From Parcubacteria group bacterium GW2011_GWA2_43_13 (GTDB lineage: Bacteria; Patescibacteriota; Patescibacteriia; UBA9629; GWA2-43-13), in the NCBI GenBank assembly GCA_000999025.1, contig LCFM01000003.1, forward strand, positions 12,253 to 76,252: a stretch of DNA of 64,000 bases, written 5' to 3'. Numbering within the stretch: the first letter of the stretch is position 1; the number at the start of each line of letters is the position of its first letter. The notes under the pieces were generated by a model. It was not told the origin of the DNA and did no database searches. It saw nothing but the letters and a program-made list of their open reading frames with translations. A program made the position numbers and the translations under genes. Shown here in pieces: positions 7,616 to 60,999 of this stretch.

Positions 7616-7623
7616 ATTTTTCT

Positions 7624-7697
7624 ACCAGGGTAGCTCAGTTGGTTAGAGCGAGGGAATCATAACCCCTAGGTCGTGAGTTCGATCCTCACCCCTGGTA
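7624..7697 (+). tRNA. elongator tRNA with anticodon CAT (Met, or Ile2 if lysidinylated)
   Basis: Acceptor ACCAGGG/CCCTGGT, D-loop AGTTGGTTA, anticodon loop ATCATAA, and T-arm GTGAG-TTCGATC-CTCAC. There is an A31-C39 mismatch in the anticodon stem. Confidence 0.7.
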
Positions 7698-7867
7698 CTC
7701 ATTACACACTATGGTTGCTTGCATTAAAATATCATGAATGATATAGTCCCGTACAAAGTATTCGCCATAAAATGCTTTAGTATTTTATGGCGAGAGGAGG
7801 GGCAAGCGTAGGCTGAAGTGTGGCACTTTAGTGACACACGTAAGCCAAAGCTTTGACCCGACGACGA

Positions 7868-7939
7868 CGCGGGGTAGAGAAATGGCATCTCGCCTGGCTC
7901 ATAACCAGGAGACTGCGGGTTCGAATCCCGCCTCCGCCA
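7868..7939 (+). tRNA. initiator tRNA-fMet (anticodon CAT)
   Basis: Unpaired 1:72 (C/C) and A11:U24 are both hallmarks of the bacterial initiator. Anticodon stem CCTGG/CCAGG with loop CTCATAA; T-arm GCGGG-TTCGAAT-CCCGC. Confidence 0.7.
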
Positions 7940-46936: not shown

Positions 46937-49900
46937 CTATGATGATCGTCGTGATAATACCTTATCAACTTCAGCAAGCACCTTCTGTGGATCAATATCG
47001 GATGCTCCTATTCGCCTACCATTTTCTTCAACAAAATGAGAACTTTTATATTCATCAGCCCATGCCTTATTGTAGGTACTCCCCCCTTGTTTGTAAATTC
47101 CCCGCGCTACAGGATGCAAAACTCTTCTCGTCGCAGGACCAGACCATGTGATGGGGTTTCCAAGAATCATCATAATATTTGGTGTGCCATACATTGAAGA
47201 AATATGGCCAATACCAGTATCCGGGGTAATAGTCATATCAGCAATATGAACAAGTACGCCGATACTCCCAAGGTCTTCTTTCGCCCGAGTAATATGATAA
47301 CCCTTATCACGAATCAGGCGATCCACCAGTCCTTCACTATACATACTCACCCGTTCTGGCCGAGTATCGTCGAGAAATACAATATGTGCATCAGGATACT
47401 TAGTGCAAATCCCGTCAAAAACCTTTTCCCATTGATCAGGATGATATTCCTTAGGCATAACAGACGAACCTGCAGAAACCACAATCACACGCTCTCCTGA
47501 TTGGATATTATACTTATCTCTTAACGCTTGTTCTCGTTGCGGGAAGTCATGACCTGGTTCCCAATAACGCTCTATTTTATTGATATTGTCAAATAACTTT
47601 TGTCCAAACATCACTTCAAAATTTCTCAAAATACGAGCAGGAAGCATATCATATCGAGTAATTCCTTTAGACACTGCTTTCTCATATACCGTATCTCTCC
47701 TCCTGCGAGGAGCTTCTTCAAGCCGCCAACTCGCATAGTCAATAGACATAACCCGAGAAGAATCAGTAATATCATTTTCACTCAACCCTAATATGTCATA
47801 GCTCTCAAAATTCTTATCAGCGTTTATGAGAAATCGCTCTTTACGCCCCTCCCACACAAAAAATTGTTTCATGCCACCAACTCCATATACTGAAACACCA
47901 GGAAACTGATTTTCCAATGGCTTCATTAAAGAAACCTGATTATTAGCAACAAAGACACGAATTGGCTTTCCTGAAATATTATTCCGTTTCATATATTCAT
48001 GCAACGCCATAATCATAGGCGTTGTAAGTACTGCGTCGCCAATAGGATGATCTAATATAACAACAATTTCTTCAGCGCGCTCAATGCCAGCAATAAGAGG
48101 GCTACGATCATAATATTCCTGTTCAAATGGACGCAATCCGATCCGTGTTTCTTCTAAATAAATATTTTCTATTTGATAATGGATTCGCCGTAACTCTTGT
48201 TGCACGAATGCATCCAAAGAATTATTTTTACCATATTGCTTGTTATATTTCTCAAGTTCTTTTTCATATTTCTGCCGCTGTACTGCCGAAATCGTTGAAA
48301 TCTGTTGCAACTCATGATATCTCTTTATTAAATAATCATATCTCCCCTTCAAACGAGAATCTGCAGCAAACCGCTCAAAGAACTTCTCACTTTCTGTGAG
48401 TGAATGACGGTACACTGCCATATCTGTATAATGTTTTTTCACTTCTCCACGATAATAATCAGGGGTCCGTTCAGGTCCATCTGGAGTTGGTTGCCGAGGT
48501 GGCATAGATGGCCCTCCACGCAACGGTGCGGCTTTGAGTTGGTTGCGTTTCCAGAATGGGAGCGCCCATGGCGACTCAACTGGCCCGCCCGGTGCAGGGG
48601 GCATGATGAGCGGGTTATGTATTGTCGCTTCTATCAACTGCTTTGTCATGTCATTGCCGATTGTAGTAGCTAATGCATGCCCATCTAACCGAATCTCCAT
48701 AAATTTCACCGGATGATGAAGATAATGCAAACTCTGCTCTGTGGTAAACAGTTTTGCGATTTCAGGCGGAAGTGTCAAACGGCCGTCAGGACTTGCGCCG
48801 TCAACTAAAATACTTAACCCCTTTTTATTTAATTCATCTGTCGGAAAAATCGCAAGTTGTAAGTGTTTTAATAATGACCCTTCACTATTCCACTGCCGCA
48901 ACTGATCCCGCAAATGTTCTAATTTGGAATCAAAACTTCCGTCCGGATTTCTGCCAAATTTGTCAAACGCATTTTCCGCGTTTTTCATCAAATTATTGGC
49001 AATGCCTCGAATGTCAAAATAGACCTTTCCATCTGCGGATTTATGCACATACCCCATTTGCTGTTTGCCTTCAAATTCAATCAAGCGATTAAAGAAATTA
49101 CTAAACCGCTTGCCGGGCTCATCATGCCAATCAGCGCGCGCATGTTTATCCAGCATGTCTTTCACATAGTCCATCGGATCAACCACCTTGCTTTCTTTTG
49201 TAATAACATCTTCCATGTTAAATCCATGCTCTTTGAGTTGCGAGATAGTATCTTCGGTCAAACTTCCATCCGGGTTGAAATGCAAATTTTCAAAAATCAC
49301 TTTGCCTTTTTCATTTACCAAATCAAATCCATCTCCTTTGCTATCGGGAATAATATTCATCCCGTCCGGTATTTTTACATTCACATCCTCTGCCCCGGGC
49401 AAATCAACATGCACATCATGAAACCCGGGACGGGGCGCTAACTCTTTAGCATGCTCTGCCACCTCGCCTGCGGCGCCTCCGGCGCCTTGCGCAACCTCAT
49501 GCGCCACGCCAGCGCCTCTTTCACCACTGCCGGTCATGTGATGCCACAACGCCTCAATATAACTGTCAGTTTTCGGCGCATGGCCAACTGCCTCTAATCC
49601 CTTAAACCATGCAAACTGCCCAACCGTTCCGGCTAACCCGCCTACTGCCACGCCAGCCAGCCCTGCGATAACTGCCTGGCCTCTTTTATACCTATCAAAT
49701 GCTTTATCATTCTCTTGGATATTTGAAACCAATGCATTCTTGCGATTATTAAAACGATTCAGAATTTCTACTGGGAGGTTATCATCATCTTCGAATCCAA
49801 ATTTTTTACGTACATCGCGCAATCGAATTTTTACATCAGTCATTGCAATTTCTTTTGTTTTATGCGGAAGGCCATACTGCACACCAATTAAATCAACTGA

Positions 49901-52453
49901 TTTTTTTTGCTCAACCTGAATCCGCGCCATAATATCTGCGACATAATCACGATCAGCATCAGCTAAACTACTTTGCGCATAAATCGCATCAAGTCGAGGA
50001 ATAACTGTTTCCGCTTTAATATGATCGTAATGAAACCGCTCAAGCGCTTTACGCTGGCGATCATTGGCCACTGTTTCCGCTCCAAGCGTTGATTGCCTTA
50101 TCGCAAGCCCGCGATCATATTTCAAATCCCTCATCCTGCGCATTGCCACAAACGCTCCACCGACTGCCATACTTGCAAGCAAAGGTGCCCAGGCAGGAGC
50201 CGTACTTGCAACGGTTGCAATAAATCCAGCAGTCGCAACTGCTTTTGCGCCGCGTCGAAACAAAGCATTGCCGACAAATCCACCTAATACGCCATATGCA
50301 ACTGGATTCGCAAGCACTTTACCGGCATGCTTCCCTAATACAGGAATATTTTCAACAAAATCAACATATTTTTCAAACCGAGTCAGAACCTCTTTAGGCT
50401 TATTATCATACAAATCACGCTGTTTTAATCCGAGCTGAATATCTAATGCCATTTCACGACGCAGATGAGTGAGAACCTTTTCCTCTTCTCCAGGATATTG
50501 TTCTGTAAGCTCTTGAATCCGTGCGCGGTATTCTTGCGCCAATTCCCAAAAATTATTTGCAAACAACAGCCCCCTTGCCTCGCGCTCGCGCGTTGCATCA
50601 TCTGAATAATTCTTTCCATGCAACAATGGTAATAATTGATGTTCAAGTTCCTCATCAAACGCTTGTCGCGTCATGGGATGCATGGCATGACGATAAAATA
50701 AATCAGCCGACACACTATTAATAGTTGCATTATCAGAAACGACCGCGCCTTTTTCATTTTGTTGGTTGATTTCTTCTGCAAATTGACGAATGACTGCGTC
50801 CAACACCTGATACGAAATATCTTGGCTTCCCGCATCAATCTGAATATTACTGTCGCCGCGAACTTTTGCTTCGATTTGTGTAAGTAAATTCTTATTACTT
50901 TGAATTGCGCTTAACGCCTCTTGATAGAATTTAATCAAATACCCTTTCTCGCTTGACCGTACCCACCAGCGTTTCACCATATTAGAATTATCAAGTAAGA
51001 CACGAAGTTTTTCTTCTGCCTCGCGCCATGCGTAGGCCTTTGCGATTTCTGACACATCAATAAGATACGCTTTCTTTTTGCCCAACGGCTGTGGTTGACG
51101 ACGTTCCGGAGTTGGCGTTGGAGTTTGCTCGGTTGGAGGTGTTGGAGTAGGTGCTGGGGTCGGGGACTGAGTTGGTACTGGCGCGGGCGATGTCGCAACT
51201 CTCGGCCGCGGAGTTGCGAGTAAATATTTCCAATGTTTGTGAGGTGTAATGGCTAAAAGGTTGAATGTTTTAGGATCCAACTGCACATGCCCAGCGGCGT
51301 CAACTGTCCCCAGCTGTTTTAGCGTATCAAGCATGACTTGTATATTATGCACATGACTTTGCCATACGCTGTCAACTAATGTTTGTATTTCCGGGGATGA
51401 CCGGGCCATGGTGCGCAAACTTGGATGCCCACCAGAAGCTTGAGCCAAGTAATCATAGATACCGTTTTCCTGCGTCAAAAGCGTTAAGAGCTGATCAAGC
51501 GATATATGGTTTGAATAGGTGTATGCTAACACTTCTTCTTTCCCCCACTTGGCAATATGTTCAAATACAATACGACCAACATGCGAGGAAATAACATCAC
51601 GTATTGTCTTATCAGGAAGTGCCTGCCACCAATCTACAATATTCCAATCCTCCGGTACCTGTGCATTCGGATCACCTATTTTTTTACGAATATTTTCAAC
51701 TTCATTTTGAATACCCCAGTGATCAATATGCTCAGGGAACATTGCTGAATTTGCCCGATGCCGCCATTCATGGCTTTGAATAGTAGCACCAGAAAGAGCA
51801 CCTGTTGTTGATCCATCTACAACAATGATACATCCTCGTAAATCAGGAGCATTCTTTGTAATGCGTGGATCACTATAGGAAAGAAATGCAGCGAGCCCGC
51901 CACTCCCAATAATAGTAATGTAATCGCGCTTATCATAAAAGGTAATATTGATGGTCGAAGGCGTAGGGCTTGTAATGTCAACATCGCCATATAATGACGT
52001 TTCAAAAATATCTGATGCCCATTGTTTGGGATCAGACATCATTTTTTGTGTCCGAAGTACAGCTGCGCATTGATCCACCACTAACCGCACTCGTTGTTCA
52101 ACAAGTTTTCGTTGATAAGTGGTTAATTTATCCATCTGTTCAGGAACCAATACCTCTCTCTCAACTTCTTGATACGTAATAGTCCCTGTCGGTCCGCCAC
52201 TGGGATTATTTTGACGAAACCCTTCAATCACCTCTATGGCATGATCAACAATCCCTGCCATAACCTTATATTCCACAACTAACTCATCGCGCGTATTTTT
52301 ATCAACACGATCTCTACGCGACGGCTCTCCCGGCGCAACAGCCACTAATAGTTGATTGCGGTACTCAGCCAAATCATAATTTGGCGTGGTATCTTGTGAG
52401 TGCGATGAGTCATCCGCTCTACTGATACCAATATACTCTCTTGTTTCTCCCAT
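46937..52453 (-). CDS. giant multidomain protein (1838 aa): membrane-anchored, Pro/Thr-rich linker, HExxH-containing N-region, and a C-terminal GT9 (heptosyltransferase-like) glycosyltransferase domain
   Basis: C-terminus VVILDHPIGDAVLTTP ... IADMTITPDTGIGHISSMYGTPNIMMILGNP matches ADP-heptose:LPS heptosyltransferase (GT9) motifs. Also an HEWRH motif, a PTPAPTPTPP linker and two hydrophobic segments. Confidence 0.7.
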   Translation of the reverse strand: MGETREYIGISRADDSSHSQDTTPNYDLAEYRNQLLVAVAPGEPSRRDRVDKNTRDELVVEYKVMAGIVDHAIEVIEGFRQNNPSGGPTGTITYQEVEREVLVPEQMDKLTTYQRKLVEQRVRLVVDQCAAVLRTQKMMSDPKQWASDIFETSLYGDVDITSPTPSTINITFYDKRDYITIIGSGGLAAFLSYSDPRITKNAPDLRGCIIVVDGSTTGALSGATIQSHEWRHRANSAMFPEHIDHWGIQNEVENIRKKIGDPNAQVPEDWNIVDWWQALPDKTIRDVISSHVGRIVFEHIAKWGKEEVLAYTYSNHISLDQLLTLLTQENGIYDYLAQASGGHPSLRTMARSSPEIQTLVDSVWQSHVHNIQVMLDTLKQLGTVDAAGHVQLDPKTFNLLAITPHKHWKYLLATPRPRVATSPAPVPTQSPTPAPTPTPPTEQTPTPTPERRQPQPLGKKKAYLIDVSEIAKAYAWREAEEKLRVLLDNSNMVKRWWVRSSEKGYLIKFYQEALSAIQSNKNLLTQIEAKVRGDSNIQIDAGSQDISYQVLDAVIRQFAEEINQQNEKGAVVSDNATINSVSADLFYRHAMHPMTRQAFDEELEHQLLPLLHGKNYSDDATREREARGLLFANNFWELAQEYRARIQELTEQYPGEEEKVLTHLRREMALDIQLGLKQRDLYDNKPKEVLTRFEKYVDFVENIPVLGKHAGKVLANPVAYGVLGGFVGNALFRRGAKAVATAGFIATVASTAPAWAPLLASMAVGGAFVAMRRMRDLKYDRGLAIRQSTLGAETVANDRQRKALERFHYDHIKAETVIPRLDAIYAQSSLADADRDYVADIMARIQVEQKKSVDLIGVQYGLPHKTKEIAMTDVKIRLRDVRKKFGFEDDDNLPVEILNRFNNRKNALVSNIQENDKAFDRYKRGQAVIAGLAGVAVGGLAGTVGQFAWFKGLEAVGHAPKTDSYIEALWHHMTGSGERGAGVAHEVAQGAGGAAGEVAEHAKELAPRPGFHDVHVDLPGAEDVNVKIPDGMNIIPDSKGDGFDLVNEKGKVIFENLHFNPDGSLTEDTISQLKEHGFNMEDVITKESKVVDPMDYVKDMLDKHARADWHDEPGKRFSNFFNRLIEFEGKQQMGYVHKSADGKVYFDIRGIANNLMKNAENAFDKFGRNPDGSFDSKLEHLRDQLRQWNSEGSLLKHLQLAIFPTDELNKKGLSILVDGASPDGRLTLPPEIAKLFTTEQSLHYLHHPVKFMEIRLDGHALATTIGNDMTKQLIEATIHNPLIMPPAPGGPVESPWALPFWKRNQLKAAPLRGGPSMPPRQPTPDGPERTPDYYRGEVKKHYTDMAVYRHSLTESEKFFERFAADSRLKGRYDYLIKRYHELQQISTISAVQRQKYEKELEKYNKQYGKNNSLDAFVQQELRRIHYQIENIYLEETRIGLRPFEQEYYDRSPLIAGIERAEEIVVILDHPIGDAVLTTPMIMALHEYMKRNNISGKPIRVFVANNQVSLMKPLENQFPGVSVYGVGGMKQFFVWEGRKERFLINADKNFESYDILGLSENDITDSSRVMSIDYASWRLEEAPRRRRDTVYEKAVSKGITRYDMLPARILRNFEVMFGQKLFDNINKIERYWEPGHDFPQREQALRDKYNIQSGERVIVVSAGSSVMPKEYHPDQWEKVFDGICTKYPDAHIVFLDDTRPERVSMYSEGLVDRLIRDKGYHITRAKEDLGSIGVLVHIADMTITPDTGIGHISSMYGTPNIMMILGNPITWSGPATRRVLHPVARGIYKQGGSTYNKAWADEYKSSHFVEENGRRIGASDIDPQKVLAEVDKVLSRRSS

Positions 52454-52457
52454 AGGG

Positions 52458-52769
52458 CTAACTGTTTAAATAAATATCCCGAAACTCCATCATGGTTTTT
52501 GCCATAATTTCATCAATACTCGGAATTCGTTCATGTAAAAATGACTGTACCTCTTGGCTATTGAAATCATGATTCTCTATGAGCTTTTCAAAATCCTTCG
52601 CATCCTGCGATGAGAATTCCTGAAAAATCGCCGTACCGATATACGCGTTCAAGCGTTGAGTAAGACCTGCCATCATATCTTGACGCAAATTATCTGATAC
52701 TCCGCCCTGTTCTGCCTCATCAATCAATTTTTCTAAAAAATCATGAATAAATTGTTCTCCTTGTTCCAT
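52458..52769 (-). CDS. hypothetical acidic protein (first gene of the giant-protein operon)
   Basis: Ends 4 nt upstream of the giant gene start. The start was set at MEQGEQF to exclude the family A hairpin. Confidence 0.45.
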   Translation of the reverse strand: MEQGEQFIHDFLEKLIDEAEQGGVSDNLRQDMMAGLTQRLNAYIGTAIFQEFSSQDAKDFEKLIENHDFNSQEVQSFLHERIPSIDEIMAKTMMEFRDIYLNS

Positions 52770-52779
52770 AGAAGCGTAT

Positions 52780-52807
52780 GTAGAGACCGGGTGAACCCCA
52801 TCTCTAC
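52780..52807. repeat. Family A-like single hairpin (GTAGAGACCGGGTGAACCCCATCTCTAC, degenerate)
   Basis: Two mismatches relative to the 44417 copy. Confidence 0.7.
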
Positions 52808-52828
52808 AGATTATATCAAAAACAAACA

Positions 52829-53086
52829 CTACGTGCCATTATCTCCATTCCCTCGATCGCTTTTTGCGATTCTCATAGAAAAAAATGCAACAATACCAGT
52901 AATAATCAACGCATAGATAATCTTTGCCATAACTGTTCCGCGGTCTAATGGGAAAATCTCTTCAATAAGCGCCACGATGGCATCGTTCCACGCAAGTCCT
53001 GCTACAACTCCAAGGCCTGCCACAATATAACCCAGTGTTTGCCTATGTAGTTCCTTGGTTAATTTGTCTTGTTTGTTTTTTTTCAT
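52829..53086 (-). CDS. small two-TM membrane protein
   Basis: 85 aa with two hydrophobic helices. Confidence 0.45.
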   Translation of the reverse strand: MKKNKQDKLTKELHRQTLGYIVAGLGVVAGLAWNDAIVALIEEIFPLDRGTVMAKIIYALIITGIVAFFSMRIAKSDRGNGDNGT

Positions 53087-53607
53087 AGTTCAGCTAATAC
53101 CTCAATAACTGTCTTCATAAATACTGGTAAATCATCTGGTTTGCGCGAAGTGATCATATTCCCATCCTGCACTACGGCTTGATCTTCCCAATCGCCTCCT
53201 GCGTTTTTCATATCATCTTTAATTGCAAAAAAAGATGTAACCCGCTTTGCGCGAATCACATCCGCAGATACTAACATCCATCCGCCATGGCAAATCGCGG
53301 CAACCACTTTTCCCGTTTGCGCCATCTGGCGCACAAAATCAACCATTTGTTTGTGGCGACGCATGTAATCAGGAGCAAAGCCACCAGGAATAATCACTGC
53401 ATCAAAATGATGTTCAACAAGTTCATCCATTCCCATCTCCGCAATTGCCTCATATCCGTACTTTCCTTTATACATTTCTCCCTTTTTCACGCCAACAAAA
53501 AATACCTGCGCTCCTTCTTCTTTTAAGCGGTAATACGGATACCATGCTTCCATATCCTGATACAGCGTCTCCATTAAAATCGCAACTGTTTTCCCTTGAA
53601 GTAACAT
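53083..53607 (-). CDS. DJ-1/PfpI-family protein
   Basis: Nucleophile elbow AICHGG and the VIIPGG motif. The start was set at MLLQGK, downstream of the hairpin. Confidence 0.8.
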   Translation of the reverse strand: MLLQGKTVAILMETLYQDMEAWYPYYRLKEEGAQVFFVGVKKGEMYKGKYGYEAIAEMGMDELVEHHFDAVIIPGGFAPDYMRRHKQMVDFVRQMAQTGKVVAAICHGGWMLVSADVIRAKRVTSFFAIKDDMKNAGGDWEDQAVVQDGNMITSRKPDDLPVFMKTVIEVLAEL

Positions 53608-53646
53608 AGATTCTTTCTGTATTGTAACAGAAATCTCCCACCAGTT

Positions 53647-53675
53647 GTAGAGACACCCCCCTGAGGCGTCTCTAT
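53647..53675. repeat. Family A-like single hairpin (GTAGAGACACCCCCCTGAGGCGTCTCTA)
   Basis: Read directly. Confidence 0.7.
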
Positions 53676-54226
53676 AATCCCAAATCATCAGCAATGTCTT
53701 TCATGGCCTCAAGCTCAAGCACAACTAATTCTTCAAGCGTCATACCAAGCAGTTCTTGGCATCTGGCAATAAGATCGCGATCTACTCCGCGAGCAAACCC
53801 CGGTGTTTTAAATTTTTTCAATATTGATTCAGAAATAACTGATGCGAGTTTTTTATCCGGCTGTACCAATGCGCACGCTACAATCAACCCGGTCAATTCT
53901 TCTGCACAATACAATGCCTTTTCAAGCATAGTTTGCGGTTCAATCCCATGCAAATGATTATGCACATAAATCGCTCGGACAACGTCATCATCCACTCCTG
54001 CTGTTTTTAAATATCCTTGCGACATAATGGAATGTTGCAAGGGATCATCTGCTGTTTCTTCCCAATCAATATCATGCAACAGTCCTGCAAGCGCCCATTT
54101 TGCTTGATCTTGTTCAAACCTTTTTGCCAGCGCTTTCATAACTGCTTCTGCCGCAACCATGTGTTTGATTAAACTTTCATTTTTTACATGTTCTCGTAAT
54201 AATGCCATTGATTGTTGTTGTGTCAT
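53672..54226 (-). CDS. HD-domain phosphohydrolase
   Basis: HD motif LLHDIDWEE with additional conserved His and Asp residues. 184 aa. Confidence 0.7.
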   Translation of the reverse strand: MTQQQSMALLREHVKNESLIKHMVAAEAVMKALAKRFEQDQAKWALAGLLHDIDWEETADDPLQHSIMSQGYLKTAGVDDDVVRAIYVHNHLHGIEPQTMLEKALYCAEELTGLIVACALVQPDKKLASVISESILKKFKTPGFARGVDRDLIARCQELLGMTLEELVVLELEAMKDIADDLGL

Positions 54227-54242
54227 AGTATTATTTTCATAC

Positions 54243-54350
54243 CACCCCCTCCTTATACAGGATGGGGAAACTGATACATCACCTCTCCTTTACAAAGAGA
54301 GTGCCCATACGTCTCCCTCTCCGTTGCAAGGAGAGGGTAGGGTGAGGTTT
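54243..54350. repeat. cluster of three Family B hairpins (last copy reverse: CCTCACCCTACCCTCTCCTT-GCAAC-GGAGAGGGAGACGTAT)
   Basis: Intergenic between the HD gene and the MazG-like gene. Also encodes the last residues of the MazG-like ORF. Confidence 0.75.
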
Positions 54351-54678
54351 ACCGACCATCCCCGCTCCCACCTAACACACCACGGTCTTTGCGAGAAAAT
54401 AATTTTTCAATATTTGCTTGCGCGATATCATCTAATGATAATCCAAATTCTGTTGCGCATTGTGAAACATACCACAACACATCACCAAGCTCGCTCTTAA
54501 TATCTTCGCGTTTCTCATCAGATACAACACCACTATCATCCCGCATTATTTTTTTCACTTTTCCGGCAACCTCGCCTGCCTCGCTCGCAAGGCCCAATGT
54601 CGGGTAAATAAAATTCTTTCCCACATTGGGATACAGTGCCGTTGTTTTCGATTTTTGCTGATACTCTTCAAAGTTCAT
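54349..54678 (-). CDS. MazG-like nucleotide pyrophosphohydrolase
   Basis: ASEAGEVAGKVKK ... ELGDVLWYV all-alpha NTP-PPase motifs (EExxE...DxxW). Confidence 0.75.
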   Translation of the reverse strand: MNFEEYQQKSKTTALYPNVGKNFIYPTLGLASEAGEVAGKVKKIMRDDSGVVSDEKREDIKSELGDVLWYVSQCATEFGLSLDDIAQANIEKLFSRKDRGVLGGSGDGR

Positions 54679-54760
54679 AGGATAAAAATAATATCATTAT
54701 CAATATTTTAATGCAAAAAAACAGCTGTCCCGTACGACAGCTGGTGAGAGAAGTCAACGA

Positions 54761-55078
54761 TCAGTACAGTAAGAGAACAACACCTTGTGGGAAACTGATA
54801 ACAAGCACCTTGGGGCATACCGCCTGCAACCACAACGATTGATATATGACAATCGCATCTCGCAACCGAGAAAAGAATCGCTGTTTCACAGATCTGCTAA
54901 GTTGTTCCCACAAAAAACCGACACCCTCCAATGCCATACACGCACACTCAAGGGAATAGCATACCTCCATCTCACCCTGCGCTCGGACAACTCCGCGCAA
55001 TTCATAGATGAATTGTTCGAGCACGCCATCAAAAGCAATGGCGAGATCCGACTGGTCCATGAAAGTCCCCTTCATCAC
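54761..55078 (-). CDS. hypothetical protein
   Basis: 105-aa ORF immediately downstream of the OLD-family gene. Confidence 0.35.
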   Translation of the reverse strand: MMKGTFMDQSDLAIAFDGVLEQFIYELRGVVRAQGEMEVCYSLECACMALEGVGFLWEQLSRSVKQRFFSRLRDAIVIYQSLWLQAVCPKVLVISFPQGVVLLLY

Positions 55079-55137
55079 GTTGTGTTATTTTTATGATACT
55101 CTTCTCCGCCACCACTGTCGAGAAATAAAAAAATACA

Positions 55138-56448
55138 TTATAACACGTCTAAAATGCTCTTAATCACCCGCATTTCTTGTGTATCCAAATCCTGCGCCGT
55201 AATGCCGTGCGCGGCGCGCAAGGCATTGATCGGCTTTTTATCATCTCTCCGCTGATACTTACGCGGATAGCTTTTTTCCAAATCGCCATTAAGAATAAAA
55301 ATATTCGCTCGGCGCAACAGCTGTATCTTTTTATTCCGATTGGCGCGTTCATTCCCATACAGTGTCTGCGCAATCACATCAGACCAATGGCTCCGCAAAG
55401 CATCACCATCCAACATAATCAGGTATGGGATTTTAAACGCCTCAAATACTTTTGCGTAAATATCAATATTATCCTTACTATTGGCATACATAACTTTCAC
55501 ATCCAATTCGCCATGATAAAACCGGTCAATCAATCCGCGCATTAAAATTCTGTCAGACACGCCTTCTACCAATAACACTTGATCCGCAAAAAACATTTCA
55601 GAATTATCAGCATCAAGTTCTTGCTCAAGGCGGTTGGTGTTAATGGCAATACCAGAGTCGGTAAGTTGGTATATTTTTGTATTCCTGTTTTCATCGCGCG
55701 CAACCCGCCATAAATGCGCAATCTGCTGGGGCTGAACAAACACAGGGCTATGCGTGGTTAAAAATATCTGATTATTCAATTTTTTATCCTTTAATACCCG
55801 AACAAATTTTTTGATCAGCGTGGGATGAAGATGCGTTTCCGGCTCATCAATCAGCACAATATCATAATCAGGATGATACACATAAAATAACATCACAAAT
55901 AATCGCTTAAATCCTTCACCCATGCGCCCTAATGGACGATCTTTGCGATCTGAAAACACGGTTGCCAAAAACAGGCGATCGCTGATTTCAATATCATTAA
56001 AATATTCTTTGAGCATCGCGCAAAATTGAGCATATACGGCAGGATGCGTGGATGAAAACTGTTTCAACTCTTGCGCTACTTTTAATGTGTCTGTCTTCTC
56101 TACTCCAATCCGTATCACGCGTTTTTGAATATGTAAGATCGTAGATGTATTTTTTTGCACTTTTCCCCCATCTATCAACCATTGTTGAATATTTTTATGC
56201 TGTTTGATGCTAACATATTCTCCGCTTTTCAAACGCAGAGTAAGTTCCAAATCAGCGCGCGAATCATAAAATCGGTCAGGATCAGGAGATGGATTAAAAA
56301 ACTGCTCAATCGCATCTAATACATTGGTTTTGCCGGAATTATTTGGGCCGATCAAAATCTGAAGATGCGAAAAACGATCAAGCACAATCGGCTCTTCAAC
56401 TGTTTTGTAATGATTGATACGCAACGCTTGTATATGCATAGTAATCAA
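55138..56448 (-). CDS. OLD-family ATP-dependent endonuclease (ABC-type ATPase plus Toprim)
   Basis: Walker A LIGPNNSGKTNVLDAI, Walker B with the OLD signature VLIDEPETHLHP, TTHSP block, and C-terminal Toprim LLVEGVSDRIL. Confidence 0.75.
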   Translation of the reverse strand: MITMHIQALRINHYKTVEEPIVLDRFSHLQILIGPNNSGKTNVLDAIEQFFNPSPDPDRFYDSRADLELTLRLKSGEYVSIKQHKNIQQWLIDGGKVQKNTSTILHIQKRVIRIGVEKTDTLKVAQELKQFSSTHPAVYAQFCAMLKEYFNDIEISDRLFLATVFSDRKDRPLGRMGEGFKRLFVMLFYVYHPDYDIVLIDEPETHLHPTLIKKFVRVLKDKKLNNQIFLTTHSPVFVQPQQIAHLWRVARDENRNTKIYQLTDSGIAINTNRLEQELDADNSEMFFADQVLLVEGVSDRILMRGLIDRFYHGELDVKVMYANSKDNIDIYAKVFEAFKIPYLIMLDGDALRSHWSDVIAQTLYGNERANRNKKIQLLRRANIFILNGDLEKSYPRKYQRRDDKKPINALRAAHGITAQDLDTQEMRVIKSILDVL

Positions 56449-56499
56449 AATATCAGATTTCGATTCTCACATATCAAATTCTCTACGATTAACGCGGTC

Positions 56500-56536
56500 G
56501 TCATTTGAAAACTGACATCTGACATTTGATAATTGG
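56500..56536. repeat. Family C tandem repeat
   Basis: gtcatttgaaaactgacatctgacatttgataattgg. Confidence 0.75.
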
Positions 56537-56539
56537 ATA

Positions 56540-57778
56540 TTATTCATACCGCAACGCCTCGATCGGGCTTTTTCCTGCGGCCTTTTTTGCGGGATACAAG
56601 CCAAATACTAATCCGATAAGAGCGGAAACCCCCAGTCCTAACAGAGCCGCGTCAATAGGGAACACAAATGCCCACTGCATGGTTGCAAACCGCGATAACA
56701 GAAACGACGCGCTCCACGAAAGAAAAGCGCCAAACGCAATACCCACTATCCCGCCGATACCAGTAAGCATCACTGCCTCGCATAAAAATTGTATCAAAAT
56801 ATCGCGATCCCTGGCACCCACTGCCTTTCGTAACCCAATTTCGCGCGTCCGTTCCGCAACTGCCACAAGCATAATATTCATAATACCGATACCGCCCACA
56901 ACCAACGATATCGCCGCAACCGCACCCAACAACAATGTCAGTACTCCAGTTATAACTCCAACCCGCTCAATCGCGTCCGCCTGGGTAGTAACATGAAAAT
57001 CATCTTTTGATGGATCAGCAATCCCATGCGTCTCCCGTAATGTAAGCTCCACATCGCGTGCAACCCGCTCAACGCTTTCATCCGTCACCGCTTGCGCAAT
57101 AATGGAATGATAATAATTGATGCCGAGTAAATATTCCTGCGCCGTGGTGTAAGGAATAAAAATAATATCATCAACATTAACCAGCGACACGCGCCCCTTT
57201 TTCCCCATCACACCAATCACGCGTAAAGATTGATTTTTGACTTTAATTTTTTCGCCTATCGCATTTTGGCCATTAAATAATTTATTTTTTATTTCCGCGC
57301 CAAGCACTGCAACTGACGCGCGCTGGCGTACATCTTCATCCGTAAACATGGCACCTTCGGCAGGCCGAATATCCAAAATATCAGTCAACAAATCGGAAGA
57401 TCCCCATACTGTTGTTCGCACTGATTCATTTTTATAATTCACAGACGCGGCAACAGTAACAACCGGCGTCATATCTTTTAAATCCTGTACATTTGCGAGT
57501 TTGCTCAATGCGCGAATATCTTTTTCTGTTAACGAATCAGTATACATTTCAGCAAAATCAGATGGGCCTTGTGGTTCTCTCCCCGGCTCTATCGAGATTG
57601 TACGGCTCCCCCACCCTTGAATTTGGCTCAAAATCAATTCCTGCGCTCCGGCGCCGATTGCCATCACCATCATAATGGCGGTAATGCCGATCACAATCCC
57701 CAGAATAGTCAAAGCAGATCGAGACCGATTCGATTTTAACCCATGTACTGCTTGTATGATTGCGTAACGAAGCTTCAT
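56540..57778 (-). CDS. ABC transporter permease (MacB/FtsX-like)
   Basis: N-terminal TM, large periplasmic domain, and C-terminal FtsX 3-TM block. Confidence 0.85.
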   Translation of the reverse strand: MKLRYAIIQAVHGLKSNRSRSALTILGIVIGITAIMMVMAIGAGAQELILSQIQGWGSRTISIEPGREPQGPSDFAEMYTDSLTEKDIRALSKLANVQDLKDMTPVVTVAASVNYKNESVRTTVWGSSDLLTDILDIRPAEGAMFTDEDVRQRASVAVLGAEIKNKLFNGQNAIGEKIKVKNQSLRVIGVMGKKGRVSLVNVDDIIFIPYTTAQEYLLGINYYHSIIAQAVTDESVERVARDVELTLRETHGIADPSKDDFHVTTQADAIERVGVITGVLTLLLGAVAAISLVVGGIGIMNIMLVAVAERTREIGLRKAVGARDRDILIQFLCEAVMLTGIGGIVGIAFGAFLSWSASFLLSRFATMQWAFVFPIDAALLGLGVSALIGLVFGLYPAKKAAGKSPIEALRYE

Positions 57779-57798
57779 AAGTGTTCATGAACCCACTC

Positions 57799-57893
57799 CG
57801 TCATCCGTAGGGTGGCACCTCTCCTTGTTAAGGAGAGGAGGACGACGGCGTATCCCCCCTCCTTAACAAGGAGGGGGTAGGGGGTGGTCTACC
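57799..57893. repeat. two Family B elements head-to-head (forward copy ...CACCTCTCCTT-GTTA-AGGAGAGGAGGACGACGGCG; reverse copy CCACCCCCTACCCCCTCCTT-GTTA-AGGAGGGGGG)
   Basis: Intergenic between the ABC permease and ATPase genes. Confidence 0.8.
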
Positions 57894-57896
57894 TCC

Positions 57897-58613
57897 TTAT
57901 TTTTTATACTCTCTCTTCTCTCCATCTTTCCCAACACGCCGATCATGCTCAACATGGCCGTCCTTCATGGTGATAACCCGATGCGCGAATGCGGCAGTTA
58001 CTGTTTCGTGGGTAATAAGAATAATCGTTGTGCCTTGTTTTCTATTCACCTCATCCAAAATAGTCATTACTGCTTTCCCAGACACGGAATCAAGATTCCC
58101 GGTCGGCTCGTCTGCAAAAATCACTTCTGGATCCAGCACTAACGCGCGCGCAATGGCAACACGCTGTTTTTCACCACCAGAAAGTTTTGATGTATGAAAT
58201 TGAGAACGATGCGAAAGCCCGACTGCATCAATCGCGTGTTCAACACGATTATGCCATTCTTTTTTAGAAATACGAGAATATAGCAAAGGCAAAGTAACAT
58301 TTTCATACACTGAAACACGCGCAAGGAGATTAAATGCCTGAAAAATAAACCCCATTTTCTCGTTACGCACCAATGCTATTTCATCTGATGAGTACTCATC
58401 CATTGTTTTGTTTTCAAACCGATACACGCCATCAGTATGGCGGTCTAAAAAACCCAATACATGAAGCAGTGTTGACTTACCTGATCCAGACGGCCCCATA
58501 ATCGCGACAAACTCGCCCTTATCAATTGCAAAAGAAACACCGCATAACGCATGTGTTTCAACCCCGTCTGACTCATACACTTTGGTAATATTCTCTATTT
58601 CCATCAGCGCCAT
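57897..58613 (-). CDS. ABC transporter ATP-binding protein (MacB/LolD-type)
   Basis: Walker A GPSGSGKST, signature LSGGEKQRVAIARAL, Walker B IFADEPTGNLD. Confidence 0.9.
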   Translation of the reverse strand: MALMEIENITKVYESDGVETHALCGVSFAIDKGEFVAIMGPSGSGKSTLLHVLGFLDRHTDGVYRFENKTMDEYSSDEIALVRNEKMGFIFQAFNLLARVSVYENVTLPLLYSRISKKEWHNRVEHAIDAVGLSHRSQFHTSKLSGGEKQRVAIARALVLDPEVIFADEPTGNLDSVSGKAVMTILDEVNRKQGTTIILITHETVTAAFAHRVITMKDGHVEHDRRVGKDGEKREYKK

Positions 58614-58622
58614 ACTATCGAA

Positions 58623-60383
58623 TTATTTTTCTTCAATAAATGAAATAATCGTATCCCCTTTGGCAATGCCTTGTGTAATTTCCGTATTGCCGTCAGACCC
58701 TCGCAACCCAATGAGGATATCTCGCTCCTCATAGAGCGGATTTCCTTTTTTATCTTTACCTGTTAACACGCGGGCAAACCATTTTCCATCTTTTTGCACC
58801 AATGCGCGTTGCGGAAGTATAATCACTCCTTCCCGCATATCAGTCAGAATATCAATATTTACTGTCATGCCTGATTTTATGCGATTGTCATCTTTCTCAA
58901 ACTGCACCTTTGTCATATATGTTGACACACCGTCAACCGCGGTTTCAGCAGGGTCAATAGTAACAACATGCCCTTGAAATGTAATGTCAGGCCCATACGC
59001 GTCAAGCGTCATGACAACAGGGTCAGAGATAGAAACAAAAGAAATATCAACTTCTGGAATATTTGCTTCTATTTCGTATTGAGCATCCGATATAACCGTA
59101 ACAACAGGACTACTCGCAGAAACAATTTCTCCGCGCTTCGCGCTCACCTGCGTCACAACGCCTGTGATGGGAGAGCGAATCATCCTTTTTGCAATTTGTG
59201 CCTGAATAGATCCAATATTCGCGTCCGCTTGCTTAATAAGCGCTTGCTGGGATTTGACAGTTGCCTCTGACTGACTAAGTTGCGCGCGCTGAGCTTCAAC
59301 CTGCTCATCTGTCGCGCCTGCTTTTTTCAACGCAAACTCGCTTTGTGCCAATGCCAATGCGTTTGTTGCGTCAGTCACTTGCGCCTGCGCAGATGTAATC
59401 GCTGATTCATTTGTCGCTTTTTGCACGGCAATGGCTTGTTGTTTCGCAGATGCTGTAATAATCTCGGCGTTAATGTTTGCTTTTTCCGTATTCAGATTTG
59501 AAGTATTCGCCACTGACACTCGATTCTCAATAGCAACCGAAGTCAATGCCGACTGAATGGCAAATAACGATGTTTTCATACTGCTGATTGCTTCGTCAAT
59601 ATCCGCATGCGATTGAGAACGTTGGGCTTGGATAACCTTCCCACGCGCACCGTTTTCTATCGAATTCATAAATTCTTTCGCCATTTGCCTGCCATTACTC
59701 TCTCCTAAAAAAAGAAAAATAGCATCCGCCTTTGCCTGGGCTAAGACAAAACTATTGGTATCATTATTTAAAAAATAGGCAAACTGAATATCAGTCAGCG
59801 TGTACAACGCACCTAATCCAATACTCACAGATTGAGACAGCGCGGATAACGCATTTTGATATGCCTCATTGATATCTGCCTCTGCTTTTTTTTGCGTTGA
59901 TATCAGCTCTGATTGAGCATCTTTTACCCCCTGCTCCGCATGGGCAACTTTGATTTGGAAAATAACAAGCTCTTCACTGCGCATGCCCTTAATCACTTCA
60001 TTTAATTTTACTTGCTGGGATTTTACACCAGCTTGATACTGCAATAATAAAGCACGCGCGCTTTCCGCGCTGGCCTGCGCCTGCCGAAGTTGCGCTCCCA
60101 GTTCCTGCGTTTCCAAAGACACTAACAACGCGCCCTGTTGCACATAATCTCCAACTACTGCAGGAAGTACGGCGATTTTCCCACCCACTTCAAACGCCAA
60201 ATCAACCTCTGTTGCAGGTACAACTTTACCGGTCACACTCACTTCATGTGTTACATCTTGAATGCGCGCTTCTGTTGTTTCAAATTGCACCGGCTTCTGC
60301 GACCCTATTACAATAAGTCCAATTCCTCCGGTCGCAATAACAAAAACAATAATCATGATGATGATTTTTTTCATTCTTTTCAT
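58623..60383 (-). CDS. HlyD/MacA-family periplasmic adaptor with extended coiled coil
   Basis: N-terminal TM, long alpha-helical hairpin region, C-terminal beta-barrel/MP domains. Confidence 0.75.
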   Translation of the reverse strand: MKRMKKIIIMIIVFVIATGGIGLIVIGSQKPVQFETTEARIQDVTHEVSVTGKVVPATEVDLAFEVGGKIAVLPAVVGDYVQQGALLVSLETQELGAQLRQAQASAESARALLLQYQAGVKSQQVKLNEVIKGMRSEELVIFQIKVAHAEQGVKDAQSELISTQKKAEADINEAYQNALSALSQSVSIGLGALYTLTDIQFAYFLNNDTNSFVLAQAKADAIFLFLGESNGRQMAKEFMNSIENGARGKVIQAQRSQSHADIDEAISSMKTSLFAIQSALTSVAIENRVSVANTSNLNTEKANINAEIITASAKQQAIAVQKATNESAITSAQAQVTDATNALALAQSEFALKKAGATDEQVEAQRAQLSQSEATVKSQQALIKQADANIGSIQAQIAKRMIRSPITGVVTQVSAKRGEIVSASSPVVTVISDAQYEIEANIPEVDISFVSISDPVVMTLDAYGPDITFQGHVVTIDPAETAVDGVSTYMTKVQFEKDDNRIKSGMTVNIDILTDMREGVIILPQRALVQKDGKWFARVLTGKDKKGNPLYEERDILIGLRGSDGNTEITQGIAKGDTIISFIEEK

Positions 60384-60399
60384 ATACTACTGATGCTGA

Positions 60400-60999
60400 T
60401 TACTTTTCCTCTTTCAACCCTATCAATGCGCGATACAACCACATGGCAAGAACCGCACCGACAATCGGCCCTACAAGATACATCACGTTACGCGCTCCAA
60501 ACACAAGCGCGACAGCAGGGTTCAGAAGCCCCAATGAAACAGTAGAGGCAACGCTGATACCGATAAGAAACGCGCCTCCAATAACAACGCCTGATAATGA
60601 TTGAGAGGCCTTTTTCTCAATCACCGCGCTCACACCAAAAGCCAACACGAACGCGCCGATCAATTCTGCAAGACCGACAATGCTGGTATTTTTAACCAAT
60701 GGATTCATTGGGCTTATGATAAATACCCCTGCCAGCGCCGCCGCAAGCCCGGCGCCTGCTAATTGCGCGATGATATATCCAAGCGCATCCTGAACACCTA
60801 TTTTACGCACAGAAAATACCGCAAGCGTAATAGCGGGATTCAAATGCGCTCCTGATACCATGCCGAGTGTATACACGCAAAAACCGAGCACAAGAGCGGC
60901 AAGCGCCGGTGTGCCGATGCGGGTAATAAGTCCAGTTGAAACAAGCACGCTGAATGCAAGCAAAAACGTGCCGATAAATTCTGCAAGATATTTTTTCAT
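60400..60999 (-). CDS. aquaporin / MIP-family channel
   Basis: Two NPA boxes (AHLNPAITLA and LNPAVALV). Confidence 0.85.
   Translation of the reverse strand: MKKYLAEFIGTFLLAFSVLVSTGLITRIGTPALAALVLGFCVYTLGMVSGAHLNPAITLAVFSVRKIGVQDALGYIIAQLAGAGLAAALAGVFIISPMNPLVKNTSIVGLAELIGAFVLAFGVSAVIEKKASQSLSGVVIGGAFLIGISVASTVSLGLLNPAVALVFGARNVMYLVGPIVGAVLAMWLYRALIGLKEEK

What the first reader, a model, noticed from the sequence alone, without database searches (positions are those of the whole stretch)
53083..56448. Candidate defence/nucleotide-metabolism cluster: OLD-family ATPase-Toprim nuclease with HD, MazG-like and DJ-1 neighbours
ORF 55138..56448 has the OLD-family signature set (Walker A LIGPNNSGKT, IDEPETHLHP, TTHSP, Toprim LVEGVSDRIL) in a compact 436-aa form, with no UvrD partner (class 1-like). 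Downstream are a 105-aa unknown gene, a MazG-like NTP pyrophosphohydrolase, an HD phosphohydrolase and a DJ-1/PfpI protein, separated by family A and B repeat clusters. OLD nucleases (P2 Old, Gabija GajA, PARIS AriAB) are antiphage effectors. MazG and HD enzymes are also used in nucleotide-depletion defence. The combination here is not a described system.
Basis: inference. Interest (0 to 1): 0.6.

Follow-up and report, generated by a model that had tools for sequence, protein, structure and literature searches.

The report
Lone compact OLD nuclease, housekeeping neighbours
The genes are real, but they are not a multi-gene defence system: a stand-alone compact OLD-family nuclease, typical of Patescibacteria, happens to lie next to unrelated housekeeping genes (a MazG-like dNTP pyrophosphatase, a small HD hydrolase and a DJ-1/PfpI protein).

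Summary
ORF 55138..56439(-) is an intact OLD-family ABC-ATPase/Toprim nuclease, and MazG-like, HD and DJ-1/PfpI genes follow it. (1) The genes lie together only in same-genus relatives, where the whole ~20 kb is collinear. None of 14 other loci carrying the same compact OLD clade has a MazG, HD or DJ-1 homologue nearby. None of the 8 MazG or 5 HD loci from other lineages carries the other genes. (2) The 109-aa MazG is a phylum-wide, highly conserved family. Elsewhere it sits beside thymidylate-synthesis genes (ThyX/ThyA, dCTP or dCMP deaminase, Tmk), which is a housekeeping context. The HD protein is also a fixed-length, phylum-wide family, found in varied housekeeping contexts. The 105-aa ORF is not a conserved partner. 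It has no homologue among 1.84 billion representative proteins and weak codon usage, and it lies in a 460-nt segment that replaces a different gene in relatives. What remains is a single-gene, Class 1-like OLD nuclease from a compact (415-445 aa) Patescibacteria clade. That clade is inherited vertically at stable chromosomal positions. Interest is low to moderate.

The parts
55138..56439 (-). Stand-alone compact OLD-family nuclease (ABC ATPase + Toprim), 433 aa from the ATG. The open frame extends to a TTG at 56448.
   Evidence: Pfam, PADLOC and NCBIfam hits. Identical to public gene call P0001 and has >400 homologues of 415-445 aa in Patescibacteria. Invariant in 116 sequences: G31, K37, T38, E199, H205, E292, G293, D296, D344, D346, E388, K402. 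AF2 model pLDDT 92.3. Best fold and sequence match is 6p74, Ts OLD Class 1.
54688..55147 (.). Lineage-specific 460-nt segment between OLD and MazG. It holds the doubtful 105-aa ORF (54761..55078, -).
   Evidence: Homology to same-genus loci stops at 55148 and resumes at 54687. Relatives carry an unrelated convergent 186-aa gene in this position. The ORF's only hit among 1.84e9 representative proteins is itself. Its codon score is +0.001, against 0.209+/-0.073 for real genes and -0.124+/-0.108 for spurious ORFs. No Rfam match and no unusual RNA folding.
54722..54743 (-). Intrinsic-terminator-like hairpin (CAGCTGTC-GTACGG-GACAGCTG followed by T7) that closes the OLD (+ORF105) unit.
   Evidence: Terminator scan and the sequence itself.
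54349..54678 (-). MazG-like single-domain NTP pyrophosphohydrolase, 109 aa. Housekeeping; probably a dUTP/dCTP-type pyrophosphatase.
   Evidence: PF03819. 7687 homologues; the top listed hits are 64-75% identical and nearly all exactly 109 aa, across Patescibacteria. In three other lineages it lies beside ThyX/ThyA, DCD or dCMP deaminase, and Tmk. Profile matches to YpjD, iMazG and E. coli MazG, and weakly to DCTPP1. No PADLOC hit.
54227..54348 (-). MazG-HD spacer with three tandem hairpins of the CCYCTCC/GGAGRGG family.
   Evidence: Sequence. RNA fold -53.5 kcal/mol, z = -4.99. The hairpins are conserved in relatives, with stem changes on both arms of the second hairpin. The same motif occurs at 6 sites across the window.
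53672..54226 (-). Small HD/HDIG phosphohydrolase, 184 aa; substrate unknown.
   Evidence: PF01966 and TIGR00277. 1900 homologues; the listed hits are 52-70% identical and nearly all 184 aa. Other lineages place it beside a class-II aminoacyl-tRNA synthetase and chorismate mutase, or near ClpB and NUDIX, never with MazG, DJ-1 or OLD. Weak profile match to YqeK Ap4A hydrolases.
53083..53607 (-). DJ-1/PfpI family protein (174 aa from the ATG at 53607). First gene of a tight DJ-1-DUF5654-DUF5663-giant protein operon.
   Evidence: PF01965 1e-49 and TIGR01382 above its cut-off. Its stop overlaps the DUF5654 start by 4 nt. Same arrangement in relatives.
46937..53086 (-). DUF5654 (52829..53086), DUF5663 (52458..52829) and an 1838-aa protein (46937..52453). 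All are packed against DJ-1, so DJ-1 belongs with these genes and not with OLD.
   Evidence: Coordinates and overlaps. Pfam DUF5654 and DUF5663. A weak GT9-like C-terminus in the giant protein. Synteny in relatives.
56540..60383 (-). Upstream MacAB-type efflux genes: HlyD-like 58623..60383, ABC ATPase 57897..58613, MacB permease 56540..57778. They neighbour OLD only within this genus-level group.
   Evidence: Pfam. Synteny in L081 and L169-L174, absent from all other OLD loci.

Best explanation
The interval is not one system. It is a run of co-oriented but separately organised chromosomal genes in a Patescibacteria (CPR) genome, where almost every gene is on this strand.

The only defence-type gene is a single-gene, Class 1-like OLD nuclease. 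It belongs to a compact (415-445 aa) clade spread across Patescibacteria. This clade keeps every ATPase and Toprim catalytic residue but has about 90 fewer residues ahead of Walker B than Thermus scotoductus OLD. In the model, the helical 'dimerisation' insertion is reduced to three helices (inferred from the model only).

Most likely mechanism, inferred by homology to P2 Old, Ts OLD, Vc OLD and GajA: an ATP-binding/hydrolysing ABC head controls a two-metal Toprim nuclease that nicks or cleaves invading nucleic acid, or tRNA. It acts alone, without a partner.

The other genes:
- MazG-like is a housekeeping dNTP pyrophosphatase. By its context elsewhere it is tied to dUMP/dTMP synthesis.
- HD is a widespread small phosphohydrolase of unknown substrate.
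- DJ-1/PfpI heads a separate operon with DUF5654, DUF5663 and a giant protein.
- The 105-aa ORF lies in a strain-specific replacement segment and is probably not a functional partner.
For: OLD identity.

No conserved partner:
- OLD-clade loci fall into five synteny groups with different neighbours: MacB-OLD; hisIE-HAD-OLD; AP endonuclease-Germane-OLD-GDE_C; OLD-MnmA-AlaRS; 440aa-OLD-312aa-340aa.
- No small neighbouring ORF is shared between groups.

Co-occurrence: OLD, MazG, HD and DJ-1 lie together only in L169-L174, where the whole ~20 kb is collinear. They co-occur in 0 of 14 other OLD loci, 0 of 8 MazG loci and 0 of 5 HD loci.

Housekeeping character: MazG and HD.

Transcription-unit breaks: a terminator after ORF105, hairpin spacers, and the DJ-1/DUF5654 overlap.

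No other convincing defence hit in 13 flanking proteins; the only one is HD to Cas3c at E = 0.0076.

ORF105 is an ORFan with weak codon usage, in a replaced segment.
Against: - All the genes share one strand and lie close together, and the arrangement is kept in at least two same-genus populations. Co-transcription or a local functional link cannot be excluded by sequence alone.
- The sample of independent contexts is small: five OLD synteny groups, three MazG contexts and two HD contexts.
- MazG- and HD-type enzymes do occur in some defence systems.
- The promoter and terminator scans do not exceed chance expectation overall.
- No activity of this OLD clade has been measured, so its role in defence is inferred.
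Confidence: 0.8

Rival explanations
1. The compact OLD is not primarily an antiphage gene. It would be a resident genome-maintenance (repair, replication or recombination) nuclease of Patescibacteria, kept by vertical inheritance.
For: - Within each of five synteny groups the gene keeps its chromosomal position while the flanking housekeeping proteins have diverged to 45-64% identity.
- OLD identity tracks the flanks. L088/L091: OLD 61%, MnmA 62%, AlaRS 64%. L084/L086: OLD 59%, GDE_C 50%, AP endonuclease 53%. L082/L083: OLD 50%, HAD 45%, PRA-CH 60%.
- The neighbours are housekeeping genes, not defence islands, integrases or mobile elements.
- No member of the clade was found in 2.9 million viral contigs or in BFVD.
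- OLD ATPase heads resemble SMC/Rad50-type genome-maintenance ATPases (PMC7049728).
Against: - Every OLD protein tested so far (P2 Old, Vc OLD, GajA, retron Eco8, PARIS, E. coli YbjD) gives phage-related phenotypes (PMC12392090, PMC13261556, PMC10568477).
- The clade is far from universal. A search of 5.8 billion clusters returned only 407 proteins at E <= 1e-5, and that total includes more distant OLD relatives.
- Chromosomal, vertically inherited Class 1 OLD genes such as ybjD still show antiphage effects.
- Synteny says nothing about biochemical role.
Confidence: 0.25
2. One reading: OLD, MazG, HD (and possibly DJ-1 and the 105-aa ORF) act together as a new defence system that couples a nuclease to nucleotide depletion.
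For: Same strand and close spacing. The arrangement is conserved in same-genus relatives L169-L174. The MazG family is also found in phages (phrog_229, 5.5e-37), so it can be recruited into conflicts.
Against: - There is no co-occurrence outside the genus in any of 14 OLD, 8 MazG or 5 HD loci.
- MazG has a recurrent thymidylate-pathway context elsewhere.
- MazG, DJ-1 and the 105-aa ORF have no PADLOC match; HD has only a marginal Cas3c hit (E = 0.0076).
- A terminator and hairpin spacers lie between the genes.
- DJ-1 is translationally coupled to a different operon.
- In relatives a convergent gene separates OLD from MazG.
Confidence: 0.04
3. OLD works with a fast-changing partner encoded in the variable slot just downstream: the 105-aa ORF here and the convergent 186-aa protein in relatives. 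This would resemble a sensor or antitoxin cassette.
For: The slot has sharp borders, about 10 nt after the OLD stop and 9 nt before the MazG start, and its content differs between close relatives. The 186-aa protein is conserved (56% identity) between two relatives and matches no known family. A promoter-like site precedes ORF105.
Against: The other four synteny groups have no equivalent slot or shared small ORF. ORF105 has weak codon usage and no homologue. The 186-aa gene is convergent, not co-transcribed. In L083 the OLD gene is followed directly by ribosomal protein L32.
Confidence: 0.06

Closest known systems
Thermus scotoductus OLD (PDB 6P74), the structural reference for Class 1 OLD nucleases
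   Same: Best sequence, profile and fold match (1.3e-14, 2.5e-27 and Foldseek 2e-22). Single gene with no helicase. The Walker A Lys, Walker B Glu (IDEPE vs IEEPE), D-loop His (HLHP), H-loop His, Toprim E-G-x-x-D, DxD and the distal Glu all align.
   Different: 433 aa against 525 aa. About 90 residues are missing ahead of Walker B, where Ts OLD has its four-helix dimerisation domain; the model shows three helices at residues 118-163. Only about 17% identical. Oligomeric state unknown.
Phage P2 Old, Vibrio cholerae Vc OLD and E. coli YbjD (functionally studied Class 1 OLDs)
   Same: Single-gene ATPase-Toprim proteins at varied loci. The PADLOC 'Old' model is the top hit (3.8e-36). The expected mechanism is a metal-dependent nuclease whose in vivo function needs the ATPase motifs (PMC7049728, PMC12392090, PMC13261556).
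   Different: Those proteins are 500-600 aa. Published Class 1 surveys discard hits under 500 aa (PMC12392090), so this clade falls outside them. The target (DNA nicking or tRNA cleavage) and the trigger are unknown here. This one is chromosomal and vertically inherited, not prophage-borne.
Gabija GajA (Class 2 OLD)
   Same: Same domain pair. Many PADLOC GajA models hit at 1e-32 to 1e-21. Second-best structural match.
   Different: No GajB/UvrD-like helicase is adjacent here or in any related locus. The protein is too short for the C-terminal helical domain of Class 2.
Stand-alone MazG-like NTP pyrophosphohydrolases (B. subtilis YpjD 2GTA, integron iMazG 2Q73, DCTPP1/RS21-C6)
   Same: The 109-aa neighbour is a single MazG domain with the invariant acidic residues E33, E36, E63 and D66.
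   Different: Weak similarity (E about 1e-4 or worse). Substrate untested. A dUTP/dCTP role is inferred only from its position beside thymidylate-synthesis genes in other Patescibacteria.

Membership tests
OLD family nuclease | N-terminal ABC-type ATPase with Walker A, Walker B and H-loop | tested here: met
   GPNNSGKT (K37), LIDEPE (E199), HLHP (H205) and TTH (H230). K37, E199 and H205 are invariant and H230 nearly invariant in 116 homologues. Pfam AAA_21 and AAA_15. Aligns to the Ts OLD motifs.
OLD family nuclease | C-terminal Toprim domain with catalytic acidic residues (E-G-x-x-D, DxD, distal Glu) and a basic residue | tested here: met
   PF20469 OLD-like_TOPRIM 1e-14. E292, G293, D296, D344, D346, E388 and K402 are invariant. 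The Toprim strands are modelled with high confidence.
OLD family nuclease | Overall fold like solved OLD proteins | tested here: met
   AF2 model pLDDT 92.3, pTM 0.89. The top Foldseek PDB hits are Ts OLD (2e-22), GajA and retron Eco8 OLD.
Class 1 OLD | Isolated gene with no UvrD/PcrA/Rep-like helicase immediately downstream | tested here: met
   The neighbours are MacB and ORF105/MazG. No adjacent helicase in any of five synteny groups.
Class 1 OLD | Length about 500-600 aa, as used in published Class 1 surveys | tested here: not met
   433 aa, and the clade is 415-445 aa. The 500-600 aa filter is stated in PMC12392090.
Class 1 OLD | Four-helix dimerisation domain inserted in the ATPase domain; homodimer | tested here: inconclusive
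   The model shows a shorter three-helix insertion at residues 118-163, and about 90 residues fewer than Ts OLD ahead of Walker B. Oligomeric state cannot be tested with these tools.
Class 1 OLD | Antiphage or interference phenotype; nuclease activity | not testable with these tools
   Needs expression and phage challenge, and in vitro nuclease and ATPase assays.
Gabija (Class 2 OLD, GajA+GajB) | GajB helicase encoded next to GajA | tested here: not met
   No helicase domain among the seven genes scanned or next to the homologues.
PARIS (AriA/AriB) and retron-associated OLD (Classes 4 and 3) | ATPase and Toprim split into two genes (PARIS), or an adjacent reverse transcriptase plus ncRNA (retron) | tested here: not met
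   ATPase and Toprim are fused in one ORF. No RT domain in the neighbours. No retron ncRNA in Rfam. The NCBIfam retron Eco8 effector model scores 72.8 bits against a 250-bit cut-off.
Multi-gene defence system (the proposed OLD-MazG-HD-DJ-1 cluster) | Component genes co-localise across unrelated genomes | tested here: not met
   They co-occur only in same-genus collinear loci, and in 0/14 OLD, 0/8 MazG and 0/5 HD loci elsewhere.
Nucleotide-depletion defence enzymes (defence-associated dNTPases or deaminases) | Match to a known defence-system model | tested here: not met
   PADLOC gives no hit for MazG or DJ-1. HD has only a marginal Cas3c hit, E = 0.0076.
MazG-like NTP pyrophosphohydrolase | MazG domain with conserved acidic metal-binding residues | tested here: met
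   PF03819 at 43.8 bits against a 22-bit cut-off. E33, E36, E63 and D66 are invariant in 21 homologues.
DJ-1/PfpI | Family model above its curated cut-off; Cys-His nucleophile elbow | tested here: met
   TIGR01382 at 173.9 bits against 139.05. The motif AAICHGG is present.

The most novel reading that the evidence does not exclude
The compact (415-445 aa) OLD clade would be a long-term resident, vertically inherited chromosomal gene of many Patescibacteria lineages. It would be either a 'domesticated', always-kept single-gene immune nuclease in very small genomes, or a genome-maintenance enzyme. It has been missed by Class 1 OLD surveys because those discard proteins under 500 aa. Its shortened dimerisation insertion would imply a different assembly or regulation from Ts OLD and P2 Old.
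Probability: 0.3. Interest if true: 0.55.

Novelty: new member of a known kind. Interest (0 to 1): 0.25.

Why it matters
As proposed, a new OLD-MazG-HD defence system would have been a real addition to the list of antiphage systems. The evidence says it is not one, so this should not be followed up as a cluster.

Three smaller points remain:
- Patescibacteria, which have tiny genomes and few recognised defence systems, widely keep a compact stand-alone OLD nuclease at stable chromosomal positions. The length filters used in Class 1 OLD surveys exclude it.
- The phylum-wide 109-aa MazG-like protein sits next to thymidylate-synthesis genes. It is therefore a candidate dUTP/dCTP pyrophosphatase of that pathway in these organisms.
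- The case shows that same-strand proximity plus genus-level synteny is not evidence of a system in genomes where nearly all genes share one strand.

Tried and rejected
They returned mostly generic OLD/ABC relatives and only 3 and 5 true clade members, so no phylum-wide statistics were possible.
- The afdb50 fold library was unavailable.
- The viral-contig scan and BFVD fold search found no compact-clade member, so a phage origin was rejected.
- ORF105 had no Pfam, NCBIfam, PADLOC or PHROGs hit, no homologue, no Rfam family and no unusual RNA folding. It had no DNA similarity to the relatives' spacer or to any fetched locus.
- The relatives' 186-aa convergent gene has no family match and no trace in the window.
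- I looked for a small partner ORF shared across OLD synteny groups and found none.
- Single-sequence PDB searches for MazG and HD found nothing. Profile searches gave only weak matches.
- Membership of Gabija, PARIS and retron systems was considered and rejected (see the membership test).
- The promoter and terminator scan was no better than shuffled sequence overall. Only the one clear terminator after ORF105 is used as evidence.

Full report
**What is there**

Between 52.4 and 60.4 kb every gene is on the - strand, as are almost all genes in the 64-kb window. GC skew is negative throughout. In the direction of transcription the order is:

| Gene | Coordinates | Note |
|---|---|---|
| HlyD-like | 58623..60383 | |
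| ABC ATPase | 57897..58613 | |
| MacB-type permease | 56540..57778 | |
| OLD-like ORF | 55138..56448 | |
| 105-aa ORF | 54761..55078 | |
| MazG-like | 54349..54678 | |
| HD | 53672..54226 | |
| DJ-1/PfpI | 53083..53694 | true start probably 53607 |
| DUF5654 | 52829..53086 | |
| DUF5663 | 52458..52829 | |
| 1838-aa protein | 46937..52453 | |

**The OLD protein**

- It matches Pfam AAA_21, AAA_15 and OLD-like_TOPRIM.
- It matches PADLOC Old (3.8e-36) and many GajA and AriA models.
- It falls far below the NCBIfam cut-offs for retron Eco8, PtuA and MADS ATPases.
- From the ATG at 56439 it is 433 aa and identical to a public gene call.
- Homology search found 407 proteins at E <= 1e-5. Nearly all of the 120 best listed are 415-445 aa. 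Wherever a source names the organism, it is Patescibacteria (Komeilibacteria or 'Patescibacteria group').
- In a 116-sequence alignment the following are invariant: the Walker A residues (G31, K37, T38), the Walker B Glu (E199), the D-loop His (H205), and the Toprim E292-G293-x-x-D296, D344-x-D346, E388 and K402. The H-loop His (H230) is nearly invariant.
- An AlphaFold2 model built on that alignment is confident (pLDDT 92.3, pTM 0.89).
- The best solved match by sequence, profile and fold is the Class 1 OLD of Thermus scotoductus, 6p74. Gabija GajA and retron Eco8 OLD follow.
- The profile alignment puts the Ts OLD catalytic motifs opposite those of this protein. It also shows about 90 fewer residues ahead of Walker B, where Ts OLD has its four-helix dimerisation domain. 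The model has three helices there, at residues 118-163 (PMC7049728).
- No helicase, reverse transcriptase or split Toprim partner is adjacent.

It is therefore a Class 1-like, single-gene OLD, but shorter than the 500-600 aa range used to define and survey Class 1 (PMC12392090).

**Linkage test, starting from OLD**

The closest relatives (OLD 79-85% identical; L081, L169-L174) share the whole neighbourhood: Memo, a 557-aa protein, aquaporin, HlyD, ABC ATPase, MacB, OLD, MazG, HD, DJ-1, DUF5654, DUF5663, the giant protein and archease. This is genus-level collinearity and carries no information about function.

More distant members of the same clade (34-51% identical) fall into four other synteny groups:
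- hisIE-HAD-OLD (L082, L083)
- AP endonuclease-Germane-...-OLD-GDE_C (L084, L086, L087, L089, L090, L093)
- OLD-MnmA-x-AlaRS (L088, L091, partly L092)
- 440aa-OLD-312aa-340aa (L001-L003)

A tblastn of all window neighbours against every fetched locus found no homologue of MazG, HD, DJ-1, DUF5654, DUF5663 or ORF105 in any of these 14 loci. No small ORF is shared between the groups.

**Linkage test, starting from the neighbours**

*MazG-like.* The 109-aa protein has 7687 homologues. The top hits are 64-75% identical and nearly all exactly 109 aa, across Yonath-, Jackson-, Moran- and Parcubacteria. In three other lineages it sits as follows:
- directly after ThyX and dCTP deaminase, and before ArgRS
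- after DCD-ThyA-DHFR-dNMP kinase-Tmk, overlapping the end of tmk, and before GatB
- after ThyX-dCMP deaminase-Tmk, and before ArgRS

This is a recurrent housekeeping context. It suggests a dUTP/dCTP-type pyrophosphatase that feeds thymidylate synthesis; that role is an inference.

*HD.* The protein has 1900 homologues. The listed ones are 52-70% identical and nearly all 184 aa. In other lineages it lies between a class-II aminoacyl-tRNA synthetase and chorismate mutase, or between DUF2784 and ClpB/NUDIX.

None of these loci carries the other genes of the proposed cluster. MazG and DJ-1 match no PADLOC model. HD has only a marginal Cas3c hit (E = 0.0076), and six further flanking proteins match none.

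**The 105-aa ORF**

- It has no family match.
- A full HMMER scan of 1.84 billion representative proteins returned only itself.
- Its codon-usage score is +0.001. Only about 1% of real 105-codon windows from this genome score lower (0.209 +/- 0.073), and the value is within the range of spurious antisense ORFs (-0.124 +/- 0.108).
- DNA homology with same-genus loci stops at 55148, about 10 nt after the OLD stop, and resumes at 54687, 9 nt before the MazG start.
- In relatives that slot holds an unrelated, convergent 186-aa gene. That gene is conserved at 56% identity between two relatives and has no family match.

ORF105 is therefore not a conserved partner. It may be a young orphan gene or non-coding filler. 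No Rfam family or unusual fold was found.

**Transcription units**

- A clear terminator-like hairpin with a T7 run follows ORF105, at 54743..54722.
- The MazG-HD spacer carries three tandem hairpins (z = -4.99). Relatives keep them, with stem changes on both arms of the second hairpin.
- A further hairpin lies between HD and DJ-1.
- The DJ-1 stop overlaps the DUF5654 start, and DUF5663 and the giant protein are packed directly behind. DJ-1 therefore belongs to that operon.
- The hairpin families occur in intergenic regions across the whole window, so they are not a feature of this interval.

**How the OLD clade evolves**

Within synteny groups, OLD identity tracks the identity of the flanking housekeeping proteins.

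| Locus pair | OLD | Flanking proteins |
|---|---|---|
| L088/L091 | 61% | MnmA 62%, AlaRS 64% |
| L084/L086 | 59% | GDE_C 50%, Germane 45%, AP endonuclease 53% |
| L082/L083 | 50% | HAD 45%, PRA-CH 60% |
| L002/L003 | 48% | 69%, 45%, 54% |

The gene is a vertically inherited chromosomal resident, not cargo of a mobile defence island. This does not tell us its role. Chromosomal Class 1 OLDs such as E. coli YbjD still show antiphage phenotypes (PMC13261556). It does keep open a genome-maintenance role.

**Verdict**

The interval contains a stand-alone compact Class 1-like OLD nuclease beside unrelated housekeeping genes.

The likely mechanism is inferred from homologues: an ATP-controlled two-metal Toprim nuclease acting alone on invading nucleic acid or tRNA. 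The domains, the catalytic residues, the fold, the lack of a partner and the lack of linkage are shown here. The target, the trigger, the oligomeric state and a defence role are inferred.

Novelty is modest. This is a new member of a known kind, from a compact sub-lineage that published surveys exclude by length. Interest is 0.25.

Noticed in passing
window 54688-55147; L169:9300-10000; L081:3790-4401: There is a sharply bounded variable slot between the OLD stop and the MazG start. The window has a unique 460-nt segment containing ORFan ORF105. Two related populations have about 690 nt carrying a convergent 186-aa gene with no known family (56% identical between them).
   Followed up: partly
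window 56400-60591 vs L171:1-5460: L171 (a public metagenome scaffold) is about 100% identical to the window from 60591 down to ~57500. Identity then decays through the 3' part of MacB (98 to 93%) to 80-90% across OLD. Downstream, L171 encodes proteins at the same identities to the window as L169 does (and the identical MazG, P0121). This is either homologous recombination between populations within the highly conserved MacB gene or a chimeric assembly.
   Followed up: partly
window 54227-54348, and sites near 3047, 4129, 16662, 36767, 57818; also near 352/416, 5406, 12691, 31099, 39574, 44417, 52780, 53647: Two families of intergenic hairpin elements occur across the whole window: CCCTCTCC-loop-GGAGAGGG and GTAGAGAC...GTCTCTAC. 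The MazG-HD spacer has three in tandem (fold z = -4.99), kept in relatives with stem changes on both arms. They look like REP-like or terminator/insulator elements of this lineage.
   Followed up: partly
L175-L182 (MazG homologue loci); window 54349-54678: The phylum-wide 109-aa MazG-like protein lies next to ThyX/ThyA, dCTP or dCMP deaminase and thymidylate kinase in three other Patescibacteria lineages. In one it overlaps the end of tmk. It is a candidate dUTP/dCTP pyrophosphatase of the dTMP pathway. No canonical dut gene was seen in those flanks.
   Followed up: partly
window 46937-53607: There is a tight operon of DJ-1/PfpI, DUF5654, DUF5663 and a giant 1838-aa protein with a proline-rich linker and a weak GT9-like C-terminus. 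The giant protein is 2044 aa with a Methyltransf_21 hit in relatives and only 72% identical there, much more diverged than its neighbours.
   Followed up: no
L082:818-2774; L083:9351-11302: In two lineages about 50% diverged, the compact OLD gene starts inside the end of a HAD-family hydrolase gene that follows a histidine-biosynthesis operon (overlapping starts). This is the only tight coupling seen for any OLD-clade member.
   Followed up: no
window 1-64000: Strand bias is extreme: almost all long ORFs are on the - strand and GC skew is negative in 31 of the 32 2-kb bins. The whole window is probably one replichore arm of a small genome. Same-strand proximity is therefore weak evidence for operons here.
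   Followed up: no
window 7531-7939: A tRNA cluster on the + strand: tRNA-Leu(CAA) and two tRNA-Met(CAT).
   Followed up: no
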